Origin: Octopus vulgaris
Lineage: Eukaryota
Direction of reading: 5' to 3'
DNA length: 64,000 nt
Assembly: GCA_951406725.2 (NCBI GenBank)
Contig: OX597839.1
Coordinates: 19,282,001-19,346,000 of the forward strand
In this document: in pieces, positions 13,108-51,722 of the stretch
Position numbering within the stretch: position 1 is the stretch's first letter
Layout: every line of letters begins with the position of its first letter
Made by a program: the position numbers and the translations under genes
The notes under the pieces: generated by a model
The model's input: only the letters and a program-made list of their open reading frames with translations
What the model was told of the DNA's origin: nothing
Database searches by the model: none

Positions 13108-13132
13108 TTAAATGAGACAGGTATAATATGAA

Positions 13133-16100
13133 GGCGGCGAGCTGGCAGAATGGTTAGCACGCCGGGCGAAGTGCTTAGCGGTATTTCGTCTGCCGTTACG
13201 TTGTGAGTTCAAATTCCGCCGAGGTCGACTTTGCCTTTCATCCTTTCGGGGTGGATAAATTAAGTACCAGTTACGCACTGGGGTCGATGTAATCGACTTA
13301 ATACCTATGTCTGTCCTTGTTTGTCCCCTCTGTGTTTAGCCCCTTGTGGGTAGTAAAGAAATAGGTATTTCGCCTGCCGTTACGTTGTGAGTTCAAATTC
13401 CGCCGAGGTCGACTTTGCCTTTCATCCTTTCGGGGCCGATAAATTAAGTACCAGTTACGCACTGGGGTCGATGTAATCGACTTAATACCTATGTCTGTCC
13501 TTGTTTGTCCCCTCTGTGTTTAGCCCCTTGTGGGTAATAAAGAAATAGGTATTTCATCTGCGTTACGTTGTGAGTTCAAATTCCACCGAGGTCGACTTTG
13601 CCTTTCATCCTTTCGGGGTCGATAAATTAAGTACCAGTTACGCACTGGGGTCGATGTAATCGACTTAATACCTATGTCTGTCCTTGTTTGTCTCCTCTAT
13701 GTTTAGCCCCTTGTGGGCAATAAAGAAATAGGTATTTCATCTGCGTTACGTTGTGAGTTCAAATTCCGCCGAGGTCGACTTTGCCTTTCATCCTTTCGGG
13801 GTCGATAAATTAAGTACCAGTTACGCACTGGGGTCGATGTAATCGACTTAATACCTATGTCTGTCCTTGTTTGTCTCCTCTATGTTTAGCCCCTTGTGGG
13901 CAATAAAGAAATAGGTATTTCATCTGCGTTACGTTGTGAGTTCAAATTCCGCCGAGGTCGACTTTGCCTTTCATCCTTTCGGGGTCGATAAATTAAGTAC
14001 CAGTTACGCACTGGGGTCGATGTAATCGACTTAATACCTATGTCTGTCCTTGTTTGTCTCCTCTATGTTTAGCCCCTTGTGGGCAATAAAGAAATAGGTA
14101 TTTCATCTGCGTTACGTTGTGAGTTCAAATTCCGCCGAGGTCGACTTTGCCTTTCATCCTTTCGGGGCCGATAAATTAAGTACCAGTTACGCACTGGGGT
14201 CGATGTAATCGACTTAATACCTATGTCTGTCCTTGTTTGTCTCCTCTATGTTTAGCCCCTTGTGGGCAATAAAGAAATAGGTATTTCATCTGCGTTACGT
14301 TGTGAGTTCAAATTCCGCCGAGGTCGACTTTGCTTTCATCCTTTCGGGGTCGATAAATTAAGTACCAGTTACGCACTGGGGTCGATGTAATCGACTTAAT
14401 ACCTATGTCTGTCCTTGTTTGTCTCCTCTATGTTTAGCCCCTTGTGGGCAATAAAGAAATAGGTATTTCATCTGCGTTACGTTGTGAGTTCAAATTCCGC
14501 CGAGGTCGACTTTGCCTTTCATCCTTTCGGGGTCGATAAATTAAGTACCAGTTACGCACTGGGGTCGATGTAATCGACTTAATACCTATGTCTGTCCTTG
14601 TTTGTCTCCTCTATGTTTAGCCCCTTGTGGGTAATAAAGAAATAGGTATTTCATCTGCGTTACGTTGTGAGTTCAAATTCCGCCGAGGTCGACTTTGCCT
14701 TTCATCCTTTCGGGGCCGATAAATTAAGTACCAGTTACGCACTGGGGTCGATGTAATCGACTTAATACCTATGTCTGTCCTTGTTTGTCCCCTCTGTGTT
14801 TAGCCCCTTGTGGGTAGTAAAGAAATAGGTATTTCATCTGCGTTACGTTGTGAGTTCAAATTCCGCCGAGGTCGACTTTGCCTTTCATCCTTTCGGGGTC
14901 GATAAATTAAGTACCAGTTACGCACTGGGGTCGATGTAATCGACTTAATACCTATGTCTGTCCTTGTTTGTCTCCTCTATGTTTAGCCCCTTGTGGGTAA
15001 TAAAGAAATAGGTATTTCATCTGCGTTACGTTGTGAGTTCAAATTCCGCCGAGGTCGACTTTGCCTTTCATCCTTTCGGGGCCGATAAATTAAGTACCAG
15101 TTACGCACTGGGGTCGATGTAATCGACTTAATACCTATGTCTGTCCTTGTTTGTCTCCTCTATGTTTAGCCCCTTGTGGGCAATAAAGAAATAGGTATTT
15201 CATCTGCGTTACGTTGTGAGTTCAAATTCCGCCGAGGTCGACTTTGCCTTTCATCCTTTCGGGGTCGATAAATTAAGTACCAGTTACGCACTGGGGTCGA
15301 TGTAATCGACTTAATACCTATGTCTGTCCTTGTTTGTCTCCTCTATGTTTAGCCCCTTGTGGGTAATAAAGAAATAGGTATTTCATCTGCGTTACGTTGT
15401 GAGTTCAAATTCCGCCGAGGTCGACTTTGCCTTTCATCCTTTCGGGGCCGATAAATTAAGTACCAGTTACGCACTGGGGTCGATGTAATCGACTTAATAC
15501 CTATGTCTGTCCTTGTTTGTCTCCTCTGTGTTTAGCCCCTTGTGGGTAGTAAAGAAATAGGTATTTCATCTGCGTTACGTTGTGAGTTCAAATTCCGCCG
15601 AGGTCGACTTTGCCTTTCATCCTTTCGGGGCCGATAAATTAAGTACCAGTTACGCACTGGGGTCGATGTAATCGACTTAATACCTATGTCTGTCCTTGTT
15701 TGTCCCCTCTATGTTTAGCCCCTTGTGGGTAATAAAGAAATAGGTATTTCATCTGCGTTACGTTGTGAGTTCAAATTCCGCCGAGGTCGACTTTGCCTTT
15801 CATCCTTTCGGGGCCGATAAATTAAGTACCAGTTACGCACTGGGGTCGATGTAATCGACTTAATACCTATGTCTGTCCTTGTTTGTCCCCTCTGTGTTTA
15901 GCCCCTTGTGGGTAGTAAAGAAATAGGTATTTCATCTGCGTTACGTTGTGAGTTCAAATTCCGCCGAGGTCGACTTTGCCTTTCATCCTTTCGGGGCCGA
16001 TAAATTAAGTACCAGTTACGCACTGGGGTCGATGTAATCGACTTAATACCTATGTCTGTCCTTGTTTGTCCCCTCTGTGTTTAGCCCCTTGTGGGTAGTA

Positions 16101-16290
16101 AAGAAATAGGTATTTCATCTGCGTTACGTTGTGAGTTCAAATTCCGCCGAGGTCGACTTTGCCTTTCATCCTTTCGGGGCCGATAAATTAAGTACCAGTT
16201 ACGCACTGGGGTCGATGTAATCGACTTAATACCTATGTCTGTCCTTGTTTGTCCCCTCTGTGTTTAGCCCCTTGTGGGTAGTAAAGAAAT
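13133..16290 (+). mobile_element. SINE family A insertion carrying a 17-unit tandem array of its ~183-bp body
   Basis: Single head with A box TGGCAGAATGG (13143-13153). B box GAGTTCAAATTCC at 13205, 13389, 13572 ... 16133 (17 copies, period 182-184). Flanked by direct repeat AGGTATAATATGAA at 13119-13132 and 16291-16304. Confidence 0.95.
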
Positions 16291-16554
16291 AGGTATAATA
16301 TGAACCCCACTTGTTTCACACAGTTACTTATGTCATGCGCAGTGCTACTTCTTCCAAAAGCAACACGGCAAAGAAGATTAATTTTGCTCAAAAAAAAAAT
16401 AAAGATAAATATTGAAATATTGAACTGAGTAAAAAAGGTGTTTTATTTAAGGAAGATTAGTCCTCACTACTTTACAAGAAGCATAGGGCCTGTTTGTCCG
16501 ATGTGCTAACGACTCTGCCAGCTGACTGTCTAGAAATTAAGAAGACATAATAAT

Positions 16555-18950: not shown

Positions 18951-20041
18951 ATCTAAGATCCGATTACTCTAGAACATCTCCAATCATATTTTAAATTCCT
19001 ACCTGTTTCGACTCCAATTACTCTCCAGTAATTCTTCATATTTTAATAATTTCAGTCCGACGCCGTCTAATAGCTATATTTTCTCATACATTTATTTACA
19101 TTTAATTTCATAATAATATCTTTACATATTACATATTGCTTTTAGGAACAACAGATAAATGTCTACAAAACACTTTAAATTTATCGATTAGAACACAATT
19201 TAAATGAAAGAAATGGTTAAAACATTTGTATATCACATTAAGAGTTATTATTCTTCATAATATATACAAAACTTGGTTATAAATTTTTCTTTAAATTTTA
19301 TAGACGTAATTCTTAAAACCAGTTATATATTTTATTTTTTATTTATCATTAAAATAAAATCCAATCTTTATAGAATAATAAAGATACTTATATATGTTTT
19401 ATCAGAATTGCTTAAGTTTTAGTTTATCAAACCGTGTTTCGTTTCTTATTATGAATAACACTGTATAACAAAATAAAATATTTACTGTCTTTGGTCAGTT
19501 AGTGTTATATCCTATTTGCTTCTATCTAAGAAAATGACTACTATTCCCTCCAAACTTCCTTTTTTTTTTACCTATTTCCCATTACATTTCAGACAGATTC
19601 AGCGCTGAGTTGCTGAAGCAGAAATATCGTTATAGCAAATATTCTTCTCAATACCACAAATTTGCACAACAGTTGCTCAACCATAACCTTAATGGCTGGC
19701 AATATGTGTATCTCTGATCATGAGCAGGAGTTGTGGCGGGAGCATCATAGCCATGTGTTGACAGTGATTCTTTGGGGTAGGAAAAAATGTAAAAGAAGCA
19801 AAGTTTGAGGGAATCATTTGTAGGGATCAGCAAACGGGAAATAACAGCTGTAACCTAGGGACAAAAATCGCTTTACTCAGAGTAATTCAGTTGTACCGTA
19901 ATAAGTGACTTGGTAGTGTTGGTGAGCTTATAAAAATGATTTTTTATTATCCACAAGGGACTAACGAAGAGGGGACAATACAATCTGATTTTGGGGTCAG
20001 ATGAGCGAATGATTATAGAAAAAAAAATGACAAAAATGACA

Positions 20042-26363: not shown

Positions 26364-27216
26364 CCCACACACATATATATGTATATATACACACATACAT
26401 ATATACATACATCAAACACACACATCTTTATATATGCCCATACATACACGCACACACACATATATATATATAAACGCACACGAGATGTGAGAGTGATGAT
26501 TCGTTACACACACACACACACCATACTGTCATGTGTTCCTATGTATAACGAACACATCCATTCATTTCTCTGAAAAATCAATCGATTAATCAATCTAGTT
26601 ATACTTCACTATAATCCTCTCTCTCTCTCTCTCTCCCACACTTTTATATACACAAACGTATACACACATGTATATACACAAGCGTACATGCATGGACAGA
26701 CACATACATACATACAAACATGCACACACACGCATAGATGTGTGCATATATTTATCGAGAACCGCTCATAGTATTACATATACGGACATCCTCATTTTTC
26801 TTCATCACGCCTCTACACACACATTCTGTCATCAGGTATTGAACTATGTATACAATACAATAATGTATATGCATGAACAAAGATGCCGAAGAACACAATG
26901 AATTCTGTAGCAGAATTGCGACAATGGTATCGGAATTTAAATAAACATAGAAATTATAGTTGAATATGTCAAAATTGAATTATCATGTAGAGGCAGGGAA
27001 ATCAACGTGAATATGTAATGTACTCGGTATCATACACGAAGTCATATGATACATACATACATACATACATACATACATTATATATATATATATATATATA
27101 TATTGGATATATGAATATGTATATGAGATATGTATATGAGAGTGTGTGTATGTATATATATATATATATCCATCGATAAATACATACATACACACGTGTA
27201 TGTATTTATCTATATA

Positions 27217-27249
<33 letters not shown>

Positions 27250-27306
27250 CCATCGATAAATACATACATACACACGTGTATGTATTTATCTATATATATA
27301 TGTGTG

Positions 27307-27347
<41 letters not shown>

Positions 27348-27492
27348 ATCGATAAATACATACATACACACGTGTATGTATTTATCTATATATATGTGTG
27401 TGTATATATATATATAAATACGTATATTCACAAACAATCTCACATTAAGATATACATGTATGTATATCTCAATAGCGTTATGCACCACGCGC

Positions 27493-27969
27493 CTGGTTAA
27501 CATGGGTATATTATTTAATAAATTTATTATGAAAACGATTAATCTACTTTGGGACTCTAAACATCCTCCTCAGGGTAGAAGTGTGGAATTGACTGATGTT
27601 TTACGACCGATTCTTGCTATCATCACGTATCGGTCTAACATTATCGTTTGGTGGATATCAGCGCGGATCAACAACTGATGATTCGTTGAAGTTATATAGA
27701 AGTTCATCGGTTTTTTTTTAGATTCAATGGTCCGATGGTACTTCTGGCTGAGGAGTCACAAGGCTTTAGAAACCCCCGTGTCCCAAATTCCCTTGTGTTG
27801 ATGAAATCGAGTGGGGTATGAACCCACGTTCGTCGTAAAGAAACTGTTCTCCTGCGATGATCACAGCAGCGATTAGCGTATTTGCGTTCGAAACTGCCTG
27901 AACGCATTACGAATCATTCTGATATAATTCATTACATCAACAGCCATATACGTCCATGTAGTTAACCAG
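27493..27969 (-). pseudogene. Possible highly decayed PIF/Harbinger transposase fragment (duplicate at ~33956-34433)
   Basis: Minus-strand pieces RRTWVH..REFG, LLIRADIHQT and MFRVPK occur in the order expected for the Harbinger N-terminal region, with frameshifts and stops; short inverted ends CTGGTTAACATGG / CCATGTAGTTAACCAG. Confidence 0.3.
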
Positions 27970-28400
27970 CTACATTCTGTTGCCCGTTGGTGAAGGGGAC
28001 AGAGGCCCCTCGTAGAATTCACGTATAGACTAGAATTCATGTAAAATATTTGTAAGATGATTTTTGTACGGAATACATCGTTGTCTTTCAAATTCATTTA
28101 ATTTGTCTTACGGTCGAATGCCATAGACCTTATGTTCTGTAAAAGTGATAAACTACAAATTTTCAATACAATTTAGAGCGAGTACAGTGAATTACGTTTT
28201 GTATACGAATACGTTTATGTATACAATGCAATGGAAGATATTCAATAGAAAAATATTTAATGGGTGTATATACATATTTCAAGAATTATTACTCTTTCAT
28301 CAGCACCAATTCCAACCCTCAGCTATTCACGAACGCAAAGCTTACACACACACACCTCTGTCTGTTTATCTATACGAAGTGATGGATAGATACATATGTT

Positions 28401-28440
<40 letters not shown>

Positions 28441-28496
28441 AGTGAGCGTGTGTGTGTGTACTCATACATACACATATGTGCGAGCGTGCAGATATA

Positions 28497-29322
28497 CAGG
28501 GTGCGGTGAATAAGTTGTCTAAATTACACAAAAATGATAGTAATACTGACATCTCATTTTAACAGATATGTTTACCAAAATTACATTAAAATATCTTGAA
28601 ATACTAAAGAGCAAATTTATTCAAGAAAATCGCCATTGGCTTCAACCACGGCCTTCAGATGACATCTTCTGGACAGTCTCCTTGTTTAAGTTGGTGAATG
28701 CTACCATAATCCTTGCCTTCAGTTCATCTTTGATGTTATAAGGAGTTTTGTTGGTCTCTCGCTCAACTGCGCCCCGCACATAATAATCAAGGGAGTTGCA
28801 GTGTGTGGAGTTAAGTGGCCAGATATTAGGGATGATGTAGTCGCAGAAATTGTCTGACAGCCATGACTGGGTTCTCCTGCTTGTGCAGAGTCATGTTGCC
28901 AGACATACGGTCTTCCAGCATCCACCCTCTTGAGCCAATGCAGCACTACCTTCTCCAGGCACTTGATGAAGGCTTGCGTGTTGTGTGTGAGGCCGTGTAG
29001 GAAGATAAATGGAGACTTAACGTCGCCATCACTAGTGATGACTCCAAATACCACGATGTTGACTGGATGTTTGATTTTTATCAGATTGACAGCCAAACAC
29101 TCTGAAATGTTCGTATTGAAGCTTCAGGCGCCAATGCCAAACAGTACAGCAGATCGTGTCCAAATTTCTGACAGAGTGAATTGCGTCATGGTACTATTTT
29201 TCTCACAGACGGTGCTCAACTGTCCCTACAATACTGCGTAGGTATCAAAATATAATTAAAAAACAGTGCGCATGCGCGAAATTTAAAATTTAAAATACCG
29301 ACAATTTACCCATAGCACCCTG
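28497..29322 (-). mobile_element. Internally deleted Tc1/mariner-superfamily (maT/DD37D-like) transposon with frameshifted transposase remnant
   Basis: TA-flanked TIRs CAGGGTGCGGTGAATAAGTTGTC vs rc CAGGGTGCTATGGGTAAATTGTC (18/23); KHPVNIVVFGVITSDG...GRPYVWQHDSA, then in another frame PNIWPLNSTHCNSLDYYVRGAVERETNKTP. Confidence 0.88.
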
Positions 29323-29904
29323 TATATAATCATGCTGACTATGAACCAATTCCTCTCAAACTATCTCCTTCATTTCTCCTCTCTCAAACTCTTTTTATCT
29401 TTATTCCTCTCCCTCCGTCTCTCTCACTAATCCACCTGTCTTTCTCTCTCTCCTTCATTCTATCTTTCTCACTCATATATCTTAATCCCCATATAACGCC
29501 TGTATAAACTACTTTCTTCAAGTTGCGAATCCTACACCCAAAAGGGTCGTTCATTTCTTCCTACCGAAATTTGTGTTGCAAAACGAAGCAATTAATTCAA
29601 TAGTTGCCAGTTCTTTATCAGTTTCTGAGAAAATGCACAAAGCTATCATAGGACTATCCATTACCGGTTCAACATGCTCAGACACACAACACAAACACTT
29701 TCTTTATCTAATAAACATAAAACAACGGCTTAAACTTACTAACTCACACACACACACACTAATACAACAATTCTATCATACATAAAAACATGCTCCACCC
29801 TACATACATACATACATACATATCTATAAATACATATATATATACATACATATATATATATATGCATACAATTATATATATATGTATATATATACATATA
29901 AGTG

Positions 29905-30029
<125 letters not shown>

Positions 30030-30035
30030 GCATAC

Positions 30036-30075
<40 letters not shown>

Positions 30076-30081
30076 GCATAC

Positions 30082-30144
<63 letters not shown>

Positions 30145-31016
30145 TGTATATATATATTTATATATACATACAAGCATATATATATATCTATGTATATATA
30201 TACATTTGCACATGTCTAAGTATATATATATATATGTACACACACACATATATAGACATAAATTTATTCGAGTGTATAATCATACAACTGTAGAAATGTG
30301 TGTATAGACACACGCAAGCACGCATATGTCTACAAAGAGAGAGAGGGGAAGAAAGAGAGAGAGAAAGAAAGAGAGAATGAAAGAAAGAAAGTGAAGAAGA
30401 AACACATATGCTACTTTTAAAATTTCTTCTTTAATCTTTTATACAACTTACAATCAATAAGGGCGAAATAATACGTATAAATATACAAAAAAACATGCAT
30501 GAAATACATGATAAATGATGGTATAAAATAAGGGCGTGTGATATCCGTACATGATATCTCCTGTTTTATTATCCTTCGGTAGATTGCTCGTTTTATCATG
30601 AGATTGATTGTTTTGGGGGATTTTTCTTCCTTTTTTTTTTTTTTTTTTTTTTGATACTCATTGAGTATAGAAAGAGTTCCAAAGAAAATGCTCTCACTGC
30701 ATGAAAGCAAATTATAAATAAATATAAATATATTTATGTAAATAAACAAAGGAGAGAGATAAACAAAGATATGAACACGATTGAATAAACAATTCTATTT
30801 ATCACTGGAATCTGTGTCTATTACATTCCACTTCCCCTTTCACTCACACTTTATATGTGTGTGTGTGTATATATGTGTGTATATGTATATATATGTGTGT
30901 GTGTGTATGTATATATATATATATGTATATATAGGTGTGTGTGTGTATATATATGTGTATATATGTGTGTGTATATATATGTATGTGTGTGTATATGTAT
31001 GTATGTATATATATGA

Positions 31017-31293
31017 CTGTGTGTTAAGTAGCTTGCTTACCAAGCACATGGTTCTGATTTCAGTCACACTGCCTGGCACCTTGCGCAAGTGTCTTCTACT
31101 ATAGACTCGGGCCGACTAAAGCCCTGGGTGGATTTGGTAGGGAAGGAAACTTATAGAAGCTTGTCGTATATATACGTGTGTGTGTGTTTGTCCCCACCCC
31201 ACCATCGATTGAGAACCGATGTTGGTGTGTTTACGTCCACGTAACTTAGCGTTTCGGCAATAGAGACGACAGAATAAGTAAGTATGCTTACAA
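31017..31293 (+). mobile_element. SINE family B, 3'-truncated (duplicate at 37488-37765)
   Basis: AAGTAGCTTGCTTACCAAGCACATGGTTC...GCAAGTGTCTTCTACTATAG...AGAATAAGTA. Confidence 0.85.
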
Positions 31294-31668
31294 AACGTTT
31301 CCGGACCATTTCTGCAACGCGCCAACAGATGGCAGCACACGGTTGCGTTCTCAGCCAGAGGTAGCAGTAACATTCACGAGGCAATGTCCCGAGAAACGTT
31401 GCTATGTTTACTGCGCAAGTAAATACACATGCATTTTTTGCTAGTGCACGTGATTCAGTAGCGAAAAGATCTAATAATGACATTTTGTTTTGTTTTTGTG
31501 GGTGGGGTAGGGTCGAAAATCTAGTTGTATGCGTTTAAAAACACTTTAAAACTGCGGCTATGACACTACCACCGTTGCATTTGTGTAGTTGTCTGACTTT
31601 AAAAAGAAGTTCCCTTAATGTCTTGCCCGGGGATAATAATGATTAATAAATGCATGTGGAGTAACATA

Positions 31669-32581
31669 TCTATATATATATATAAAAGTGAAGTTGTGTG
31701 AGTGTCTGTCTCCTACGATTTAGATTCCTAACTCCTCCCACATTTTGCGGTGCAGTTTAACCAAATTCGGGTATCTTATAGTCGTGATTCATATCGAGCC
31801 CGTCTGACTATTAGCGCGCGTCAACGATGAGTCTACGATTTTAAAAATAATTTAACATCATTTTTTATTCCATTTTAATGCATAAAATGCATCGTGTGTC
31901 GATGGCGGCGGAGTTGGCGTCCACGCTCACAGCTGCACCTGTTTGCTTCTCCCCCTTCTTCCCTCCCTCGTGAAGCTGTGGGGAAGGGAGTGTAAAGAAA
32001 TCAACGTCGTAATGCGTTGTCAAGGAGACCAGCGTTCTTTTAGAACAACGACTTCATGGCTTGAAGACACCAAAACAGAAATGGCTAAGAAAGTCTGAAT
32101 TGGCATCTATAAGGGAAGTAACTCTCTAAAAATGCTTATATAGTTATTTCCCTTACAAACCCGAGCAACGCCGGGCGATACTGCTAGTATATATATAAAA
32201 GTGAAGTTGTGTGAGTGTCTGTCACCTACGATTTAGATTCCTAACTACTCCCACATTTTGCGGTGCAGTTTAACCAAAACCGGGTATCTTATAGTCGTGA
32301 TTCATATCGAGCCCTTCTGGGTATTAGCGCGCGTCTACGATGAGTCTACGATTTTTAAAATAATTTACCATAATTTTTTTCCATTTTAAAGCATATTTTT
32401 TAAATAAAGGGAAGTAACTCTCTAAAAATGTCTACGATGAGTCAACGATTTAAAAAAAAATTTACCATAATTTTTTTTCCGTTTTTAATGCATTTTTTGC
32501 TGTTTTTTGGCTATAACTCTCTAAAAATGCTTTATAGTTATTTCCTTTACAAACCCGAGCAACGCCGGGCGATACTGCTAG
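31669..32581 (+). mobile_element. Non-autonomous Helitron, head-to-tail dimer (31669-32187 and 32188-32581)
   Basis: A|TC 5' end; both units end in subterminal hairpin CCCGAGCAACGCCGGG followed by CGATACTGCTAG|T; shared ~200-bp 5' region; no TSD. Confidence 0.85.
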
Positions 32582-32839
32582 TTGGGGTATAAAATTTGAA
32601 CTGGAACATATATATGTGAAGCCATACTCTGAAACTTTCCGAGCGAATGATTTATATCATTGGTAGAACTCCGTGCGGTATACTATATTAAATCTGGCAG
32701 AATCGTTAACATGAAGGTAAGATGCTTAGTGGCATTTCATCCGTCTTTAAGTTCTGCGTTCAAATTCCGCAGAAGTCGACCTTATCTTTCATCCTTCTGG
32801 GGTCGATAAAATAAGTACCAGTAGAAAACTGGGTCGATG

Positions 32840-32939: not shown

Positions 32940-33681
32940 ATAAACGCACACGAGATGTGAGAGTGATGATTCGTTACACACACACACACACACACACACC
33001 ATACTGTCATGTGTTCCTATGTATAACGAACACATCCATTCATTTCTCTGAAAAATCAATCGATTAATCAATCTAGTTATACTTCACTATAATCCTCTCT
33101 CTCTCTCTCTCTCCCACACTTTTATATACACAAACGTATACACACATGTATATACACAAGCGTACATGCATGGACAGACACATACATACATACAAACATG
33201 CACACACACGCATAGATGTGTGCATATATTTATCGAGAACCGCTCATAGTATTACATATACGGACATCCTCATTTTTCTTCATCACGCCTCTACACACAC
33301 ATTCTGTCATCAGGTATTGAACTATGTATACAATACAATAATGTATATGCATGAACAAAGATGCCGAAGAACACAATGAATTCTGTAGCAGAATTGCGAC
33401 AATGGTATCGGAATTTAAATAAACATAGAAATTATAGTTGAATATGTCAAAATTGAATTATCATGTAGAGGCAGGGAAATCAACGTGAATATGTAATGTA
33501 CTCGGTATCATACACGAAGTCATATGATACATACATACATACATACATACATACATTATATATATATATATATATATATATTGGATATATGAATATGTAT
33601 ATGAGAGTGTGTGTATGTATATATATATATATATCCATCGATAAATACATACATACACACGTGTATGTATTTATCTATATA

Positions 33682-33714
<33 letters not shown>

Positions 33715-33769
33715 CCATCGATAAATACATACATACACACGTGTATGTATTTATCTATATATATATGTG

Positions 33770-33810
<41 letters not shown>

Positions 33811-34864
33811 ATCGATAAATACATACATACACACGTGTATGTATTTATCTATATATATGTGTGTGTATATATATATATAAATACGTATATTCACAAACAA
33901 TCTCACATTAAGATATACATGTATGTATATCTCAATAGCGTTATGCACCACGCGCCTGGTTAACATGGGTATATTATTTAATAAATTTATTATGAAAACG
34001 ATTAATCTACTTTGGGACTCTAAACATCCTCCTCAGGGTAGAAGTGTGGAATTGACTGATGTTTTACGACCGATTCTTGCTATCATCACGTATCGGTCTA
34101 ACATTATCGTTTGGTGGATATCAGCGCGGATCAACAACTGATGATTCGTTGAAGTTATATAGAAGTTCATCGGTTTTTTTTTAGATTCAATGGTCCGATG
34201 GTACTTCTGGCTGAGGAGTCACAAGGCTTTAGAAACCCCCGTGTCCCAAATTCCCTTGTGTTGATGAAATCGAGTGGGGGTATGAACCCACGTTCGTCGT
34301 AAAGAAACTGTTCTCCTGCGATGATCACAGCAGCGATTAGCGTATTTGCGTTCGAAACTGCCTGAACGCATTACGAATCATTCTGATATAATTCATTACA
34401 TCAACAGCCATATACGTCCATGTAGTTAACTAGCTACATTCTGTTGCCCGTTGGTGAAGGGGACAGAGGCCCCTCGTAGAATTCACGTATAGACTAGAAT
34501 TCATGTAAAATATTTGTAAGATGATTTTTGTACGGAATACATCGTTGTCTTTCAAATTCATTTAATTTGTCTTACGGTCGAATGCCATAGACCTTATGTT
34601 CTGTAAAAGTGATAAACTACAAATTTTCAATACAATTTAGAGCGAGTACAGTGAATTACGTTTTGTATACGAATACGTTTATGTATACAATGCAATGGAA
34701 GATATTCAATAGAAAAATATTTAATGGGTGTATATACATATTTCAAGAATTATTACTCTTTCATCAGCACCAATTCCAACCCTCAGCTATTCACGAACGC
34801 AAAGCTTACACACACACACCTCTGTCTGTTTATCTATACGAAGTGATGGATAGATACATATGTT

Positions 34865-34902
<38 letters not shown>

Positions 34903-34958
34903 AGTGAGCGTGTGTGTGTGTACTCATACATACACATATGTGCGAGCGTGCAGATATA

Positions 34959-35784
34959 CAGGGTGCGGTGAATAAGTTGTCTAAATTACACAAAAATGAT
35001 AGTAATACTGACATCTCATTTTAACAGATATGTTTACCAAAATTACATTAAAATATCTTGAAATACTAAAGAGCAAATTTATTCAAGAAAATCGCCATTG
35101 GCTTCAACCACGGCCTTCAGATGACATCTTCTGGACAGTCTCCTTGTTTAAGTTGGTGAATGCTACCATAATCCTTGCCTTCAGTTCATCTTTGATGTTA
35201 TAAGGAGTTTTGTTGGTCTCTCGCTCAACTGCGCCCCGCACATAATAATCAAGGGAGTTGCAGTGTGTGGAGTTAAGTGGCCAGATATTAGGGATGATGT
35301 AGTCGCAGAAATTGTCTGACAGCCATGACTGGGTTCTCCTGCTTGTGCAGAGTCATGTTGCCAGACATACGGTCTTCCAGCATCCACCCTCTTGAGCCAA
35401 TGCAGCACTACCTTCTCCAGGCACTTGATGAAGGCTTGCGTGTTGTGTGTGAGGCCGTGTAGGAAGATAAATGGAGACTTAACGTCGCCATCACTAGTGA
35501 TGACTCCAAATACCACGATGTTGACTGGATGTTTGATTTTTATCAGATTGACAGCCAAACACTCTGAAATGTTCGTATTGAAGCTTCAGGCGCCAATGCC
35601 AAACAGTACAGCAGATCGTGTCCAAATTTCTGACAGAGTGAATTGCGTCATGGTACTATTTTTCTCACAGACGGTGCTCAACTGTCCCTACAATACTGCG
35701 TAGGTATCAAAATATAATTAAAAAACAGTGCGCATGCGCGAAATTTAAAATTTAAAATACCGACAATTTACCCATAGCACCCTG
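34959..35784 (-). mobile_element. Duplicate of the maT-like transposon remnant
   Basis: Same TIRs and identical ORF-track translation as 28497-29322. Confidence 0.88.
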
Positions 35785-36407
35785 TATATAATCATGCTGA
35801 CTATGAACCAATTCCTCTCAAACTATCTCCTTCATTTCTCCTCTCTCAAACTCTTTTTATCTTTATTCCTCTCCCTCCGTCTCTCTCACTAATCCACCTG
35901 TCTTTCTCTCTCTCCTTCATTCTATCTTTCTCACTCATATATCTTAATCCCCATATAACGCCTGTATAAACTACTTTCTTCAAGTTGCGAATCCTACACC
36001 CAAAAGGGTCGTTCATTTCTTCCTACCGAAATTTGTGTTGCAAAACGAAGCAATTAATTCAATAGTTGCCAGTTCTTTATCAGTTTCTGAGAAAATGCAC
36101 AAAGCTATCATAGGACTATCCATTACCGGTTCAACATGCTCAGACACACAACACAAACACTTTCTTTATCTAATAAACATAAAACAACGGCTTAAACTTA
36201 CTAACTCACACACACACACACTAATACAACAATTCTATCATACATAAAAACATGCTCCACCCTACATACATACATACATACATACATATCTATAAATACA
36301 TATATATATACATACATATATATATATATGCATACAATTATATATATATGTATATATGTATATAAAAGTGTATATATATATATACATATATATATATATA
36401 CATATAA

Positions 36408-36505
<98 letters not shown>

Positions 36506-36511
36506 GCATAC

Positions 36512-36552
<41 letters not shown>

Positions 36553-36556
36553 GCAT

Positions 36557-36620
<64 letters not shown>

Positions 36621-38140
36621 TGTATATATATATTTATATATACATACAAGCATATATATATATCTATGTATATATATACATTTGCACATGTCTAAGTATA
36701 TATATATATATGTACACACACACATATATAGACATAAATTTATTCGAGTGTATAATCATACAACTGTAGAAATGTGTGTATAGACACACGCAAGCACGCA
36801 TATGTCTACAAAGAGAGAGAGGGGAAGAAAGAGAGAGAGAAAGAAAGAGAGAATGAAAGAAAGAAAGTGAAGAAGAAACACATATGCTACTTTTAAAATT
36901 TCTTCTTTAATCTTTTATACAACTTACAATCAATAAGGGCGAAATAATACGTATAAATATACAAAAAAACATGCATGAAATACATGATAAATGATGGTAT
37001 AAAATAAGGGCGTGTGATATCCGTACATGATATCTCCTGTTTTATTATCCTTCGGTAGATTGCTCGTTTTATCATGAGATTGATTGTTTTGGGGGATTTT
37101 TCTTCCTTTTTTTTTTTTTTTTTGATACTCATTGAGTATAGAAAGAGTTCCAAAGAAAATGCTCTCACTGCATGAAAGCAAATTATAAATAAATATAAAT
37201 ATATTTATGTAAATAAACAAAGGAGAGAGATAAACAAAGATATGAACACGATTGAATAAACAATTCTATTTATCACTGGAATCTGTGTCTATTACATTCC
37301 ACTTCCCCTTTCACTCACACTTTATATGTGTGTGTGTGTATATATGTGTGTATATGTATATATATGTGTGTGTGTGTATGTATATATATATATATGTATA
37401 TATAGGTGTGTGTGTGTATATATATGTGTATATATGTGTGTGTATATATATGTATGTGTGTGTATATGTATGTATGTATATATATGACTGTGTGTTAAGT
37501 AGCTTGCTTACCAAGCACATGGTTCTGATTTCAGTCACACTGCCTGGCACCTTGCGCAAGTGTCTTCTACTATAGACTCGGGCCGACTAAAGCCCTGGGT
37601 GGATTTGGTAGGGAAGGAAACTTATAGAAGCTTGTCGTATATATACGTGTGTGTGTGTTTGTCCCCACCCCACCATCGATTGAGAACCGATGTTGGTGTG
37701 TTTACGTCCACGTAACTTAGCGTTTCGGCAATAGAGACGACAGAATAAGTAAGTATGCTTACAAAACGTTTCCGGACCATTTCTGCAACGCGCCAACAGA
37801 TGGCAGCACACGGTTGCGTTCTCAGCCAGAGGTAGCAGTAACATTCACGAGGCAATGTCCCGAGAAACGTTGCTATGTTTACTGCGCAAGTAAATACACA
37901 TGCATTTTTTGCTAGTGCACGTGATTCAGTAGCGAAAAGATCTAATAATGACATTTTGTTGTTTTTTTTGTGGGTGGGGTAGGGTCGAAAATCTAGTTGT
38001 ATGCGTTTAAAAACACTTTAAAACTGCGGCTATGACACTACCACCGTTGCATTTGTGTAGTTGTCTGACTTTAAAAAGAAGTTCCCTTAATGTCTTGCCC
38101 GGGGATAATAATGATTAATAAATGCATGTGGAGTAACATA

Positions 38141-39052
38141 TCTATATATATATATAAAAGTGAAGTTGTGTGAGTGTCTGTCTCCTACGATTTAGATTCC
38201 TAACTCCTCCCACATTTTGCGGTGCAGTTTAACCAAATTCGGGTATCTTATAGTCGTGATTCATATCGAGCCCGTCTGACTATTAGCGCGCGTCAACGAT
38301 GAGTCTACGATTTTAAAAATAATTTAACATCATTTTTTATTCCATTTTAATGCATAAAATGCATCGTGTGTCGATGGCGGCGGAGTTGGCGTCCACGCTC
38401 ACAGCTGCACCTGTTTGCTTCTCCCCCTTCTTCCCTCCCTCGTGAAGCTGTGGGGAAGGGAGTGTAAAGAAATCAACGTCGTAATGCGTTGTCAAGGAGA
38501 CCAGCGTTCTTTTAGAACAACGACTTCATGGCTTGAAGACACCAAAACAGAAATGGCTAAGAAAGTCTGAATTGGCATCTATAAGGGAAGTAACTCTCTA
38601 AAAATGCTTATATAGTTATTTCCCTTACAAACCCGAGCAACGCCGGGCGATACTGCTAGTATATATATAAAAGTGAAGTTGTGTGAGTGTCTGTCACCTA
38701 CGATTTAGATTCCTAACTACTCCCACATTTTGCGGTGCAGTTTAACCAAAACCGGGTATCTTATAGTCGTGATTCATATCGAGCCCTTCTGGGTATTAGC
38801 GCGCGTCTACGATGAGTCTACGATTTTTAAAATAATTTACCATAATTTGTTTCCATTTTAAAGCATATTTTTTAAATAAAGGGAAGTAACTCTCTAAAAA
38901 TGTCTACGATGAGTCAACGATTTAAAAAAAATTTACCATAATTTTTTTTCCGTTTTTAATGCATTTTTTGCTGTTTTTTGGCTATAACTCTCTAAAAATG
39001 CTTTATAGTTATTTCCTTTACAAACCCGAGCAACGCCGGGCGATACTGCTAG
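38141..39052 (+). mobile_element. Duplicate of the Helitron dimer
   Basis: Same termini; CTAG at 38656-38659 and 39049-39052. Confidence 0.85.
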
Positions 39053-39571
39053 TTGGGGTATAAAATTTGAACTGGAACATATATATGTGAAGCCATACTC
39101 TGAAACTTTCCGAGCGAATGATTTATATCATTGGTAGAACTCCGTGCGGTATACTATATTAAATCTGGCAGAATCGTTAACATGAAGGTAAGATGCTTAG
39201 TGGCATTTCATCCGTCTTTAAGTTCTGCGTTCAAATTCCGCAGAAGTCGACCTTATCTTTCATCCTTCTGGGGTCGATAAAATAAGTACCAGTAGAAAAC
39301 TGGGTCGATGTAATCGACTTATTTCTCCTTGAAATTTTGTTGTCGTTCCAAAATTTGAAACGAATATGTTGATTTTGTGTGACACATAATTTGCATCTTC
39401 TGGTGCCGTTGACATACTGACCGGTCAGCGACATCCAACAACTCAGATCTCCTTTTCGAGGATGAGCTTTTGGCCAGCTATACGTATATGTGACATGCAG
39501 CCCCATCCGAGATATGTTGTCATTCCTAACGTAGCAACGTAAGCAGAAAACTAATGCGATTTTCCTATGTC

Positions 39572-50774: not shown

Positions 50775-51340
50775 TTTTGACATGCGCATTGCGTTTTTAA
50801 TCTTCCCTTTTGACATGCGCATTGCGTTTTTATTCTTATCTTTTTTTGACATGTGCATTCCCTTTTTAATCTTCCTTTTTGACATGTACATTGCGTTTTT
50901 ATTCTTCTCTTCCCTTTCTTTTGACATGCGCATTGCGTTTTTATTCTCTTCCCTTTTGACATGCGCATTGTGTTTTTATTCTCTTCCCTTTTGACATGCG
51001 CATTGCATTGTTATTCTCTTCCCTTTTGACATCCGCATTGCGTTTTTATTCTCTTCCCTTTTGACATGCGCATTGCGTTTTTATTCTTATCTTGTTTTGA
51101 CATCCGCATTTCGTTTTTATTCCGATCTTCTCTTGACATGCGCATTGCATTTTTATTCTCTTCCCTTTTGACATGCGCATTGCGTTTTTATTCTCTTCCC
51201 TTTTGACATGCGCATTCCGTTTTTATTCTTATCTTGTTTTGACATGCGCATTCCGTTTTTATTCGTCCTTTTTGACATGTACATTGCGTTTTTATTCTTC
51301 TCTCCCCTTTCTTTTGACATGCGCATTGCGTTTTTATTCA
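50775..51340. repeat. Minisatellite, 16 units of 33-42 bp (TTTTGACATGCGCATTGCGTTTTTATTCTCTTCCC)
   Basis: 16 GACAT cores counted. Confidence 0.95.
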
Positions 51341-51722
51341 CTTCCGTTTTACGAATTCAGTGTGCACATGTGCATTGCAGGTTCATTCTTCTTTTCTCGG
51401 TTCTTATTCAAAACTGTTTATAGATCGATCTCAACAACTGCGTTCATGGGGAGTTGCTTCGCGCTCCGATGGTTGTGAGAAAACGTTAAAAGCCGGAAGT
51501 CATGTCGCTAAGTATTTATGTCCGGTGCGGTAATGATTCAGGCAGCTCTTAACTATTTGAGTTCAAATTCCATGAAGGTCATCTTTGCCTTTCAACCTTT
51601 CGGAGTTGATAAGTATCACTGAAGTACTGATGTCGAAGTAATCGGCTCCACTCTCGCCCACCCCCACAAAATCTGCGGCTCCCATGTCAGAAACTTGAAA
51701 CAGTTATTTAATTTCGTTCTAA

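What the first reader, a model, noticed from the sequence alone, without database searches (positions are those of the whole stretch)
13119..16304. One SINE insertion amplified into a 17-unit, 3.2-kb satellite inside an intact 14-bp target-site duplication
Seen: a single tRNA-like head, then 17 near-identical 182-184 bp bodies, bounded by AGGTATAATATGAA on both sides. The first 6 nt of the TSD (AGGTAT) equal the unit-unit junction, i.e. microhomology with the target. Other family A copies here have 1-3 units. Established: SINEs integrate by target-primed reverse transcription and leave TSDs. Inference: either a multimeric cDNA was inserted in one step (repeated template re-priming or a circular template) or a dimer/trimer expanded in place. 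Either way it is a SINE-to-satellite transition with both ends preserved.
Basis: partly seen in the sequence, partly recalled or inferred. Interest (0 to 1): 0.72.

Follow-up and report, generated by a model that had tools for sequence, protein, structure and literature searches.

The report
SINE array grown in place
One short jumping-DNA head is followed by 17 tandem copies of its body inside a single insertion scar; the array likely started from two or three copies that landed behind the same head and then multiplied by DNA exchange, a long example of a pattern that is common in this genome and already reported in clams and reptiles.

Summary
Observation confirmed: exact 14-bp direct repeat, one 47-nt head, 17 bodies of 182-184 bp. 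The locus is not unique: the same tail-to-body join occurs 37,998 times in G000, other 7-14-unit arrays exist, and GGTA after the 3' end is a family-wide target preference (47 of 73 young monomers). One-step insertion of a 17-mer is disfavoured. Variants that are rare elsewhere (0.4%, 3.4%) sit in 9 and 15 units, in recombined combinations, similarity falls with distance, no donor array was found, and only 4 private changes exist although short-read contigs weakly suggest the insertion is shared with other individuals and species labels. So most units likely arose in place. Seeding probably came from new copies inserting at the GGTATTT site behind an older head: young bodies always come first, and such arrays keep old, decayed scars. 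The tail matches L1/Tx1-type LINE 3' ends. The architecture is published (blood clam, squamates), and this scan has reported it four times on other DNA of this genome. Unit number could not be checked with long reads.

The parts
13119..13132 (+). Left target-site duplication (unambiguous core 13120-13130; last AA may be the element's own 5' end)
13133..13179 (+). Single tRNA-like head; A-box-like motif at 13143-13153 (box consensus recalled; ARAGORN and Rfam give no tRNA call)
13180..13363 (+). Body 1, 184-bp type; B-box-like motif at 13207-13217 (recalled consensus); starts with GGTATTT, the family's preferred target
13364..13547 (+). Body 2, 184-bp type, carries the rare C at unit column 73
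13548..16291 (+). Bodies 3-17, 183-bp type (one of 182), all with the rare A at column 9, mosaic for columns 73, 147, 153, 172, 174
16244..16291 (+). LINE-derived tail of the last body (present in every body); up to 42 of 48 identical to 3' ends of RVT_1 + zf-RVT LINEs, ending at the same base
16291..16304 (+). Right target-site duplication
16382..16385 (+). First run of four or more T downstream of the head; none lies inside the array, so a Pol III transcript would be predicted to read through

Best explanation
This is one TSD-bounded locus of an abundant tRNA-type SINE that holds one head and 17 bodies; it was likely seeded by two or three separate bodies placed behind the same head and then likely multiplied in place by unequal DNA exchange. 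Step 1 (shown as a pattern): young copies land in front of GGTAYT, the same letters that open the body. Step 2 (inferred): the SINE RNA runs on past its tail into GGUAUU and pairs with the nicked target, while an L1/Tx1-type LINE that shares the tail supplies the enzymes. Step 3 (shown at other loci, inferred here): the site behind the head of an older copy is such a target; when the new cDNA anneals to the matching old head and body start, the result has one head and the new body first. Step 4 (shown by variant pattern): neighbouring bodies misalign and exchange, multiplying a few founder haplotypes, often in steps of two, and erasing private mutations.
For: In-place growth: column-9 A is in 15 of 17 units but in 118 of 3,498 matches elsewhere; column-73 C is in 9 of 17 but in 21 of about 5,180 elsewhere, all 21 at separate places, so no donor array. 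Ten column pairs show all four gametes. Difference rises with distance (rho 0.42, p 0.0014; units 3-17 rho 0.49, p 0.001; lag-2 p 0.02-0.03). 4 singletons against 7 shared variants; about 25 expected at 0.8% per lineage, P 3e-7, if the insertion is as old as the flank differences in X2, X3, X5. L051/L052 has 8 full bodies then 6 pieces of about 99 bp, a second period. L136 and L137 read as A, B5'-A3', B. Seeding: 184- and 183-bp subfamily types are both present. In 70 loci picked by a pattern blind to position, the matching unit was first in 70 of 70, 18 of them multimers. Perfect TSDs: 30 of 73 young monomers, 0 of 24 young-plus-older arrays (p 6e-5), 2 of 35 short-type monomers. Two-headed insertions at the same site: 7 of 113 flagged, 6 with the site legible. 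Majority bases after young monomers spell GGTATTT. Tail match to LINEs; none of 62 LINE-end rows was followed by GGTA.
Against: Seeding by self-insertion is shown for other loci, not this one; here the TSD is perfect and of the GGTA type, which also fits a pasted dimer or trimer. All-young multimers have perfect TSDs in 4 of 10 (this array included), and L138 is a near-identical dimer in a perfect 17-bp TSD. Heads of young-plus-older arrays differ from the young head by 4.8%, closer to young monomers (3.7%) than to old-type elements (7.2%); young versus mixed p 0.13, so retention of an old head is not shown. Among 17 incidental multimers the first unit had fewer rare changes than the last in 10, more in 5, p 0.088. 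The cross-individual evidence covers only 14-18 SINE letters, under the tool's 31-letter bridging rule. Short-read polishing of an assembly can shuffle variants among units; not testable here. No RNA 3' end was seen, and no GGTA-preferring LINE was found.
Confidence: 0.6

Rival explanations
1. A ready-made 2-4-body copy was pasted here in one retrotransposition (read-through RNA of a multimeric source, or a template jump between RNAs at the shared GGUAU), then expanded in place. It differs from the best explanation only in the seeding step.
For: No T4 run inside the array; perfect GGTA-type TSD around the whole; all-young multimers with perfect TSDs in 4 of 10; L044 and L050 share a rare unit haplotype under different TSDs; template jumps by non-LTR enzymes are documented (PMC3414825, passages).
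Against: 0 of 24 young-plus-older arrays have a perfect TSD, matching old short monomers (2 of 35) rather than young monomers (30 of 73); downstream units of different arrays did not look like sisters of one source in the alignments viewed (part was cut).
Confidence: 0.27
2. All 17 bodies were written in one event by repeated re-priming on one RNA or by rolling round a circular monomer.
For: Fixed junction; the tail run-on equals the body start; units are 96-100% alike.
Against: One template gives identical units plus private errors, not three rare variants shared by 9-15 units in recombined sets; two subfamily length types are present; similarity falls with distance; no ribozyme or other Rfam match; fold z-score -1.0.
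Confidence: 0.05
3. The real locus has a few units and the assembly inflated or shuffled them.
For: No long reads seen; a 6.4-kb, 99.1% identical tandem duplication elsewhere in the window may be an assembly feature; assembly method not known to me.
Against: 3.1 kb is within long-read range (established knowledge); 10 haplotypes with locus-specific rare variants in an ordered gradient; other 7-14-unit arrays each carry their own private variants; the go-back joint 13363 to 13180 is the best-supported go-back joint listed for X2, X3 and X5.
Confidence: 0.08

Closest known systems
TSD1-(SINE)n-TSD1 arrays of the blood clam Scapharca broughtonii (PMC11481361; passages read)
   Same: One TSD around the whole; first unit with a complete tRNA head, later units head-truncated at one position; 4-15 units.
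   Different: There the internal units also lack part of the tail and only the last is complete; here every body has the full tail. The passages read propose recombination between TSDs and mention no target preference or polarity.
SINE-derived satellites (sSat) of squamates (PMC10702118; parts 1-4 of 5 read)
   Same: Unit covers box B and body; rare variants keep both SINE termini; longer arrays are more uniform; alternating dimer patterns; unit number varies between orthologues.
   Different: sSats reach hundreds of units, favour subtelomeres and rarely include the whole 3' end; this array is mid-contig (19.3 of 41.2 Mb), 17 units, with a junction fixed across 37,998 joins.
SINEU-3 with Tx1-Mar in crocodilians (PMC4494074; passages read)
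   Same: SINE with target preference, Tx1-type partner, tandem copies from sequential insertion.
   Different: SINEU targets another transposon, tandem copies sandwich a TSD and keep their heads, and the partner shares the preference; here the target is a short motif inside the SINE itself, joins are seamless, and sampled tail-sharing LINEs did not show the preference.
Octopus OR1/OR2 CORE-SINEs (Ohshima and Okada 1994; not read, seen only as cited in PMC4824008 and PMC4758252)
   Same: Likely host group and tRNA-head plus central-domain plus LINE-tail layout; the resemblance to a CORE-type domain is recalled, not tested.
   Different: No sequence was available for comparison; motif searches of two papers' supplements found nothing (one file not searched).

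Membership tests
tRNA-derived SINE | tRNA-like head with A and B boxes | tested here: inconclusive
   Box-like motifs by eye against a recalled consensus; ARAGORN 0 genes, Rfam no tRNA match.
tRNA-derived SINE | Dispersed, short, high copy number | tested here: met
   39 elements with a full body in 720 kb of evenly spaced samples; 5,168 exact matches to one 58-mer.
tRNA-derived SINE | Variable-length TSDs | tested here: met
   40 of 73 young monomers with TSD of 10 nt or more; control 1 of 300.
tRNA-derived SINE | 3' tail shared with a LINE | tested here: met
   Up to 42 of 48 identical with 3' ends about 600 nt behind zf-RVT; RVT_1 and zf-RVT over cut-off in L222.
tRNA-derived SINE | Pol III transcription | not testable with these tools
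   No RNA reads laid; only contigs were offered for RNA runs.
TSD1-(SINE)n-TSD1 array | One TSD, one full head, repeated head-truncated units | tested here: met
TSD1-(SINE)n-TSD1 array | Internal units with truncated tail, complete tail only in the last | tested here: not met
   All 17 bodies align end to end.
SINE-derived satellite (sSat) | At least four middle monomers shorter than the SINE, homogenised | tested here: met
   15 middle units, mean pairwise difference 3.4 of 184 over all 17.
SINE-derived satellite (sSat) | Subtelomeric preference | tested here: not met
   This locus is at 19.3 Mb of a 41.2-Mb contig; family-wide distribution not tested.
Retrozyme (circular RNA template) | Self-cleaving ribozyme in each monomer (definition recalled) | tested here: not met
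   Rfam at E up to 5 on 13000-13800: one chance-level snoRNA hit only.
CORE-SINE (OR1/OR2) | CORE central domain | not testable with these tools
   No reference sequence retrievable.
Tx1-clade-mobilised SINE | Partner RT falls in the Tx1 clade and shares the target preference | tested here: inconclusive
   No tree built; none of 62 tail-sharing LINE-end rows was followed by GGTA.

The most novel reading that the evidence does not exclude
This SINE carries its own landing code: its RNA runs on into the letters that open its body, so new copies are added one at a time directly behind an existing head with a seamless join, youngest first, like spacers at a CRISPR leader. The stacks then turn into self-homogenising arrays, giving a genome-wide, tens-of-thousands-fold route from retrotransposition to satellite seeds.
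Probability: 0.5. Interest if true: 0.6.

Novelty: new variant of a known kind. Interest (0 to 1): 0.38.

Why it matters
How dispersed repeats seed tandem repeats is an open question. This family offers about 38,000 exact joins, arrays of 2 to 17 units with both ends and the insertion scar intact, and variants that separate retrotransposition from DNA exchange, so the steps can be tested with long reads from several individuals. The single locus adds little beyond being the longest example seen here.

Tried and rejected
tRNA and Rfam scans gave no call; folding of head plus body was unremarkable. Empty-site search: none seen in X2, X5, X8, X10; X8 had no cover and X5 only a look-alike from another locus, which proves nothing. 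Raw reads of X22 had no cover on the unique flank, so no depth estimate of unit number. A genome-wide count of arrays with three spaced joins could not be run, so the number of long arrays is unknown. My starting guess of a Meta-type domain found no support. A donor array with the same rare variants was not found. A GGTA-preferring partner LINE was not found among 62 rows drawn from 80 LINE loci. Polarity in incidental multimers alone was not significant. The split of head differences into 5' and 3' halves and the divergence of each unit from a family consensus were not computed, so whether heads are old-young hybrids stays open. Literature searches listed no paper on seamless self-insertion of a SINE; the library lacks most subscription journals.

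Full report
Observation. The 14-mer at 13119-13132 and 16291-16304 is exact and occurs twice in the window; between the copies lie a 47-nt head and 17 bodies of 184, 184, 183x4, 182 and 183x10 bp. The window is G000:C26:19282001-19346000 of a 2.8-Gb genome, probably an octopus (inference from recall of the SINE type and from earlier notes). The units fall into 10 haplotypes over 11 variable columns. No tRNA gene, ribozyme or other Rfam family was called.

The family. In 72 evenly spaced 10-kb samples, 39 elements had a full body: 29 with one unit, 8 with two, 2 with three, none longer; 6 of the 29 belong to one tandem of another type at L206. A 23-nt tail-to-body junction motif matches 37,998 times, control 0, and the same joint is seen in contigs of runs X2, X3 and X5. 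Searches aimed at multimers returned arrays of 7-8 full units (L044, L048, L132) and one of 8 plus 6 shorter pieces (L051/L052). The 17-mer is the longest I saw, in the tail of a common distribution. The last 48 nt of the body match 3' ends of LINEs with RVT_1 and zf-RVT, up to 42 of 48, ending at the same base. The clade (L1 or Tx1) was not tested by a tree.

The microhomology. GGTA follows 47 of 73 young monomers, GG 64 of 73, and the majority letters at +1 to +7 spell GGTATTT, the start of the body; background GGTA is 0.25%. The left TSD copies start with the same letters, so this is target choice. None of 62 LINE-end rows (29, 21 and 12; some are copies of one insertion; 18 further loci gave no clear tail or were not printed) was followed by GGTA. 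I infer that the SINE RNA runs on into these letters and pairs with the nicked strand; an unsampled partner with this specificity remains possible.

How 17 units arose. Column-9 A: 133 matches, 15 here, against 3,380 for G. Column-73 C: 30 matches, 9 here and 21 at separate places, against 5,168 for T. Column-147 T is in 10 units and about 2% of my sample. These occur in recombined sets: ten column pairs show four gametes. Difference grows with distance (rho 0.42, p 0.0014) and units 8, 10 and 12 are identical. One RNA or circle copied repeatedly would not give this, and no donor array exists in G000. Age: a contig of X3 runs from the left flank 18 nt into the head with 7 differences in 398; contigs of X2 and X10, labelled as other organisms, run from the right flank across the TSD and 14 tail letters with 5 differences in 94 and no loose end on that side; by eye an empty site would differ at 7 of those 14. 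This is under the tool's 31-letter rule, so it is a hint. If it holds, about 25 private changes are expected and 4 are seen. L136 and L137 show the first-unit, hybrid, last-unit pattern of unequal exchange. Caveat: polishing could shuffle variants, and no long reads were available.

How it was seeded. Both 184- and 183-bp subfamily types are present, so there were likely at least two founders. I examined 70 of the 133 column-9 matches; the matching unit was first in all 70, including 18 multimers (p 6e-7 without polarity; a few are two-headed insertions where first place is automatic). Over all held arrays, a set enriched for young first units, 30 read young then older or short, 2 have an old unit between young ones, none starts old and continues young. 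Young-plus-older arrays have 0 of 24 perfect TSDs, like short-type monomers (2 of 35) and unlike young monomers (30 of 73), so the scar belongs to the old copy and the young body came later. Two-headed insertions at the same site exist. A seamless join by annealing of cDNA to the matching old sequence is my inference from recalled R2 biology; the R2 passages I read showed template jumps only (PMC3414825). Against: heads of mixed arrays look nearer young than old, incidental multimers alone give p 0.088, and this locus has a perfect TSD, so a pasted dimer or trimer stays a serious rival.

Comparison. The architecture is described for the blood clam, 4-15 units in one TSD (PMC11481361, passages), and as SINE-derived satellites in squamates (PMC10702118, parts 1-4 of 5). 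SINEU/Tx1-Mar is the nearest case of target-directed stacking (PMC4494074, passages). Passages of an octopus repeat annotation (PMC13282606) do not mention such arrays; its supplements were not seen. Searches listed no paper on seamless self-insertion, which is weak evidence of absence; supplements and Repbase or Dfam entries that I could not see may describe the family. This scan already noted the same behaviour four times on other DNA of this genome; those notes are not independent support.

Verdict. A real feature and a new variant of a known kind. In-place expansion is well supported, seeding by self-insertion is likely, one-step insertion is unlikely. Interest 0.38.

Noticed in passing
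window 26470-32839 and 32940-39310: 6.4-kb direct tandem duplication, 99.1% identical; recent duplication or assembly feature.
   Followed up: no
window 59745-64000: (ATAC)n tract of at least 4.2 kb running off the window end.
   Followed up: no
window 50775-51350 and 56150-56447: 35-bp minisatellite (16 copies) and a 129-bp repeat (2.3 copies).
   Followed up: no
window 19940-19978 (-) and 6206-6245 (+): Isolated 3' ends sharing the SINE tail without its body; the first resembles the LINE 3' ends found later.
   Followed up: partly
L051 1454-3559 (G000:C26, 27.82 Mb): Array of 8 full bodies followed by 6 pieces with a period of about 99 bp.
   Followed up: partly
L019 1020-1974: Four complete copies, each with its head, in tandem about 10 nt apart: the other array type described in clams.
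   Followed up: no
L206 (G000:C25, 30.0 Mb): Six tandem units that include part of the head, with a different junction.
   Followed up: no
L036, L077, L089, L098, L101, L102, L104, L118, L130: Young copies sit in front of a GGTACTT site that reads as the opposite strand of the family's own central domain, a second self-target.
   Followed up: partly
L210 3087-6965: Histone gene cluster (H4, H3, H2B by eye) with a LINE 3' fragment repeated in several cluster units.
   Followed up: no
L265, L275, L276, L278; L272, L273; G000:C2 73.05-73.07 Mb: LINE families with a fixed sequence behind their 3' end, and copies spaced about 5.4 kb apart, suggesting site-specific, stacked insertion.
   Followed up: no
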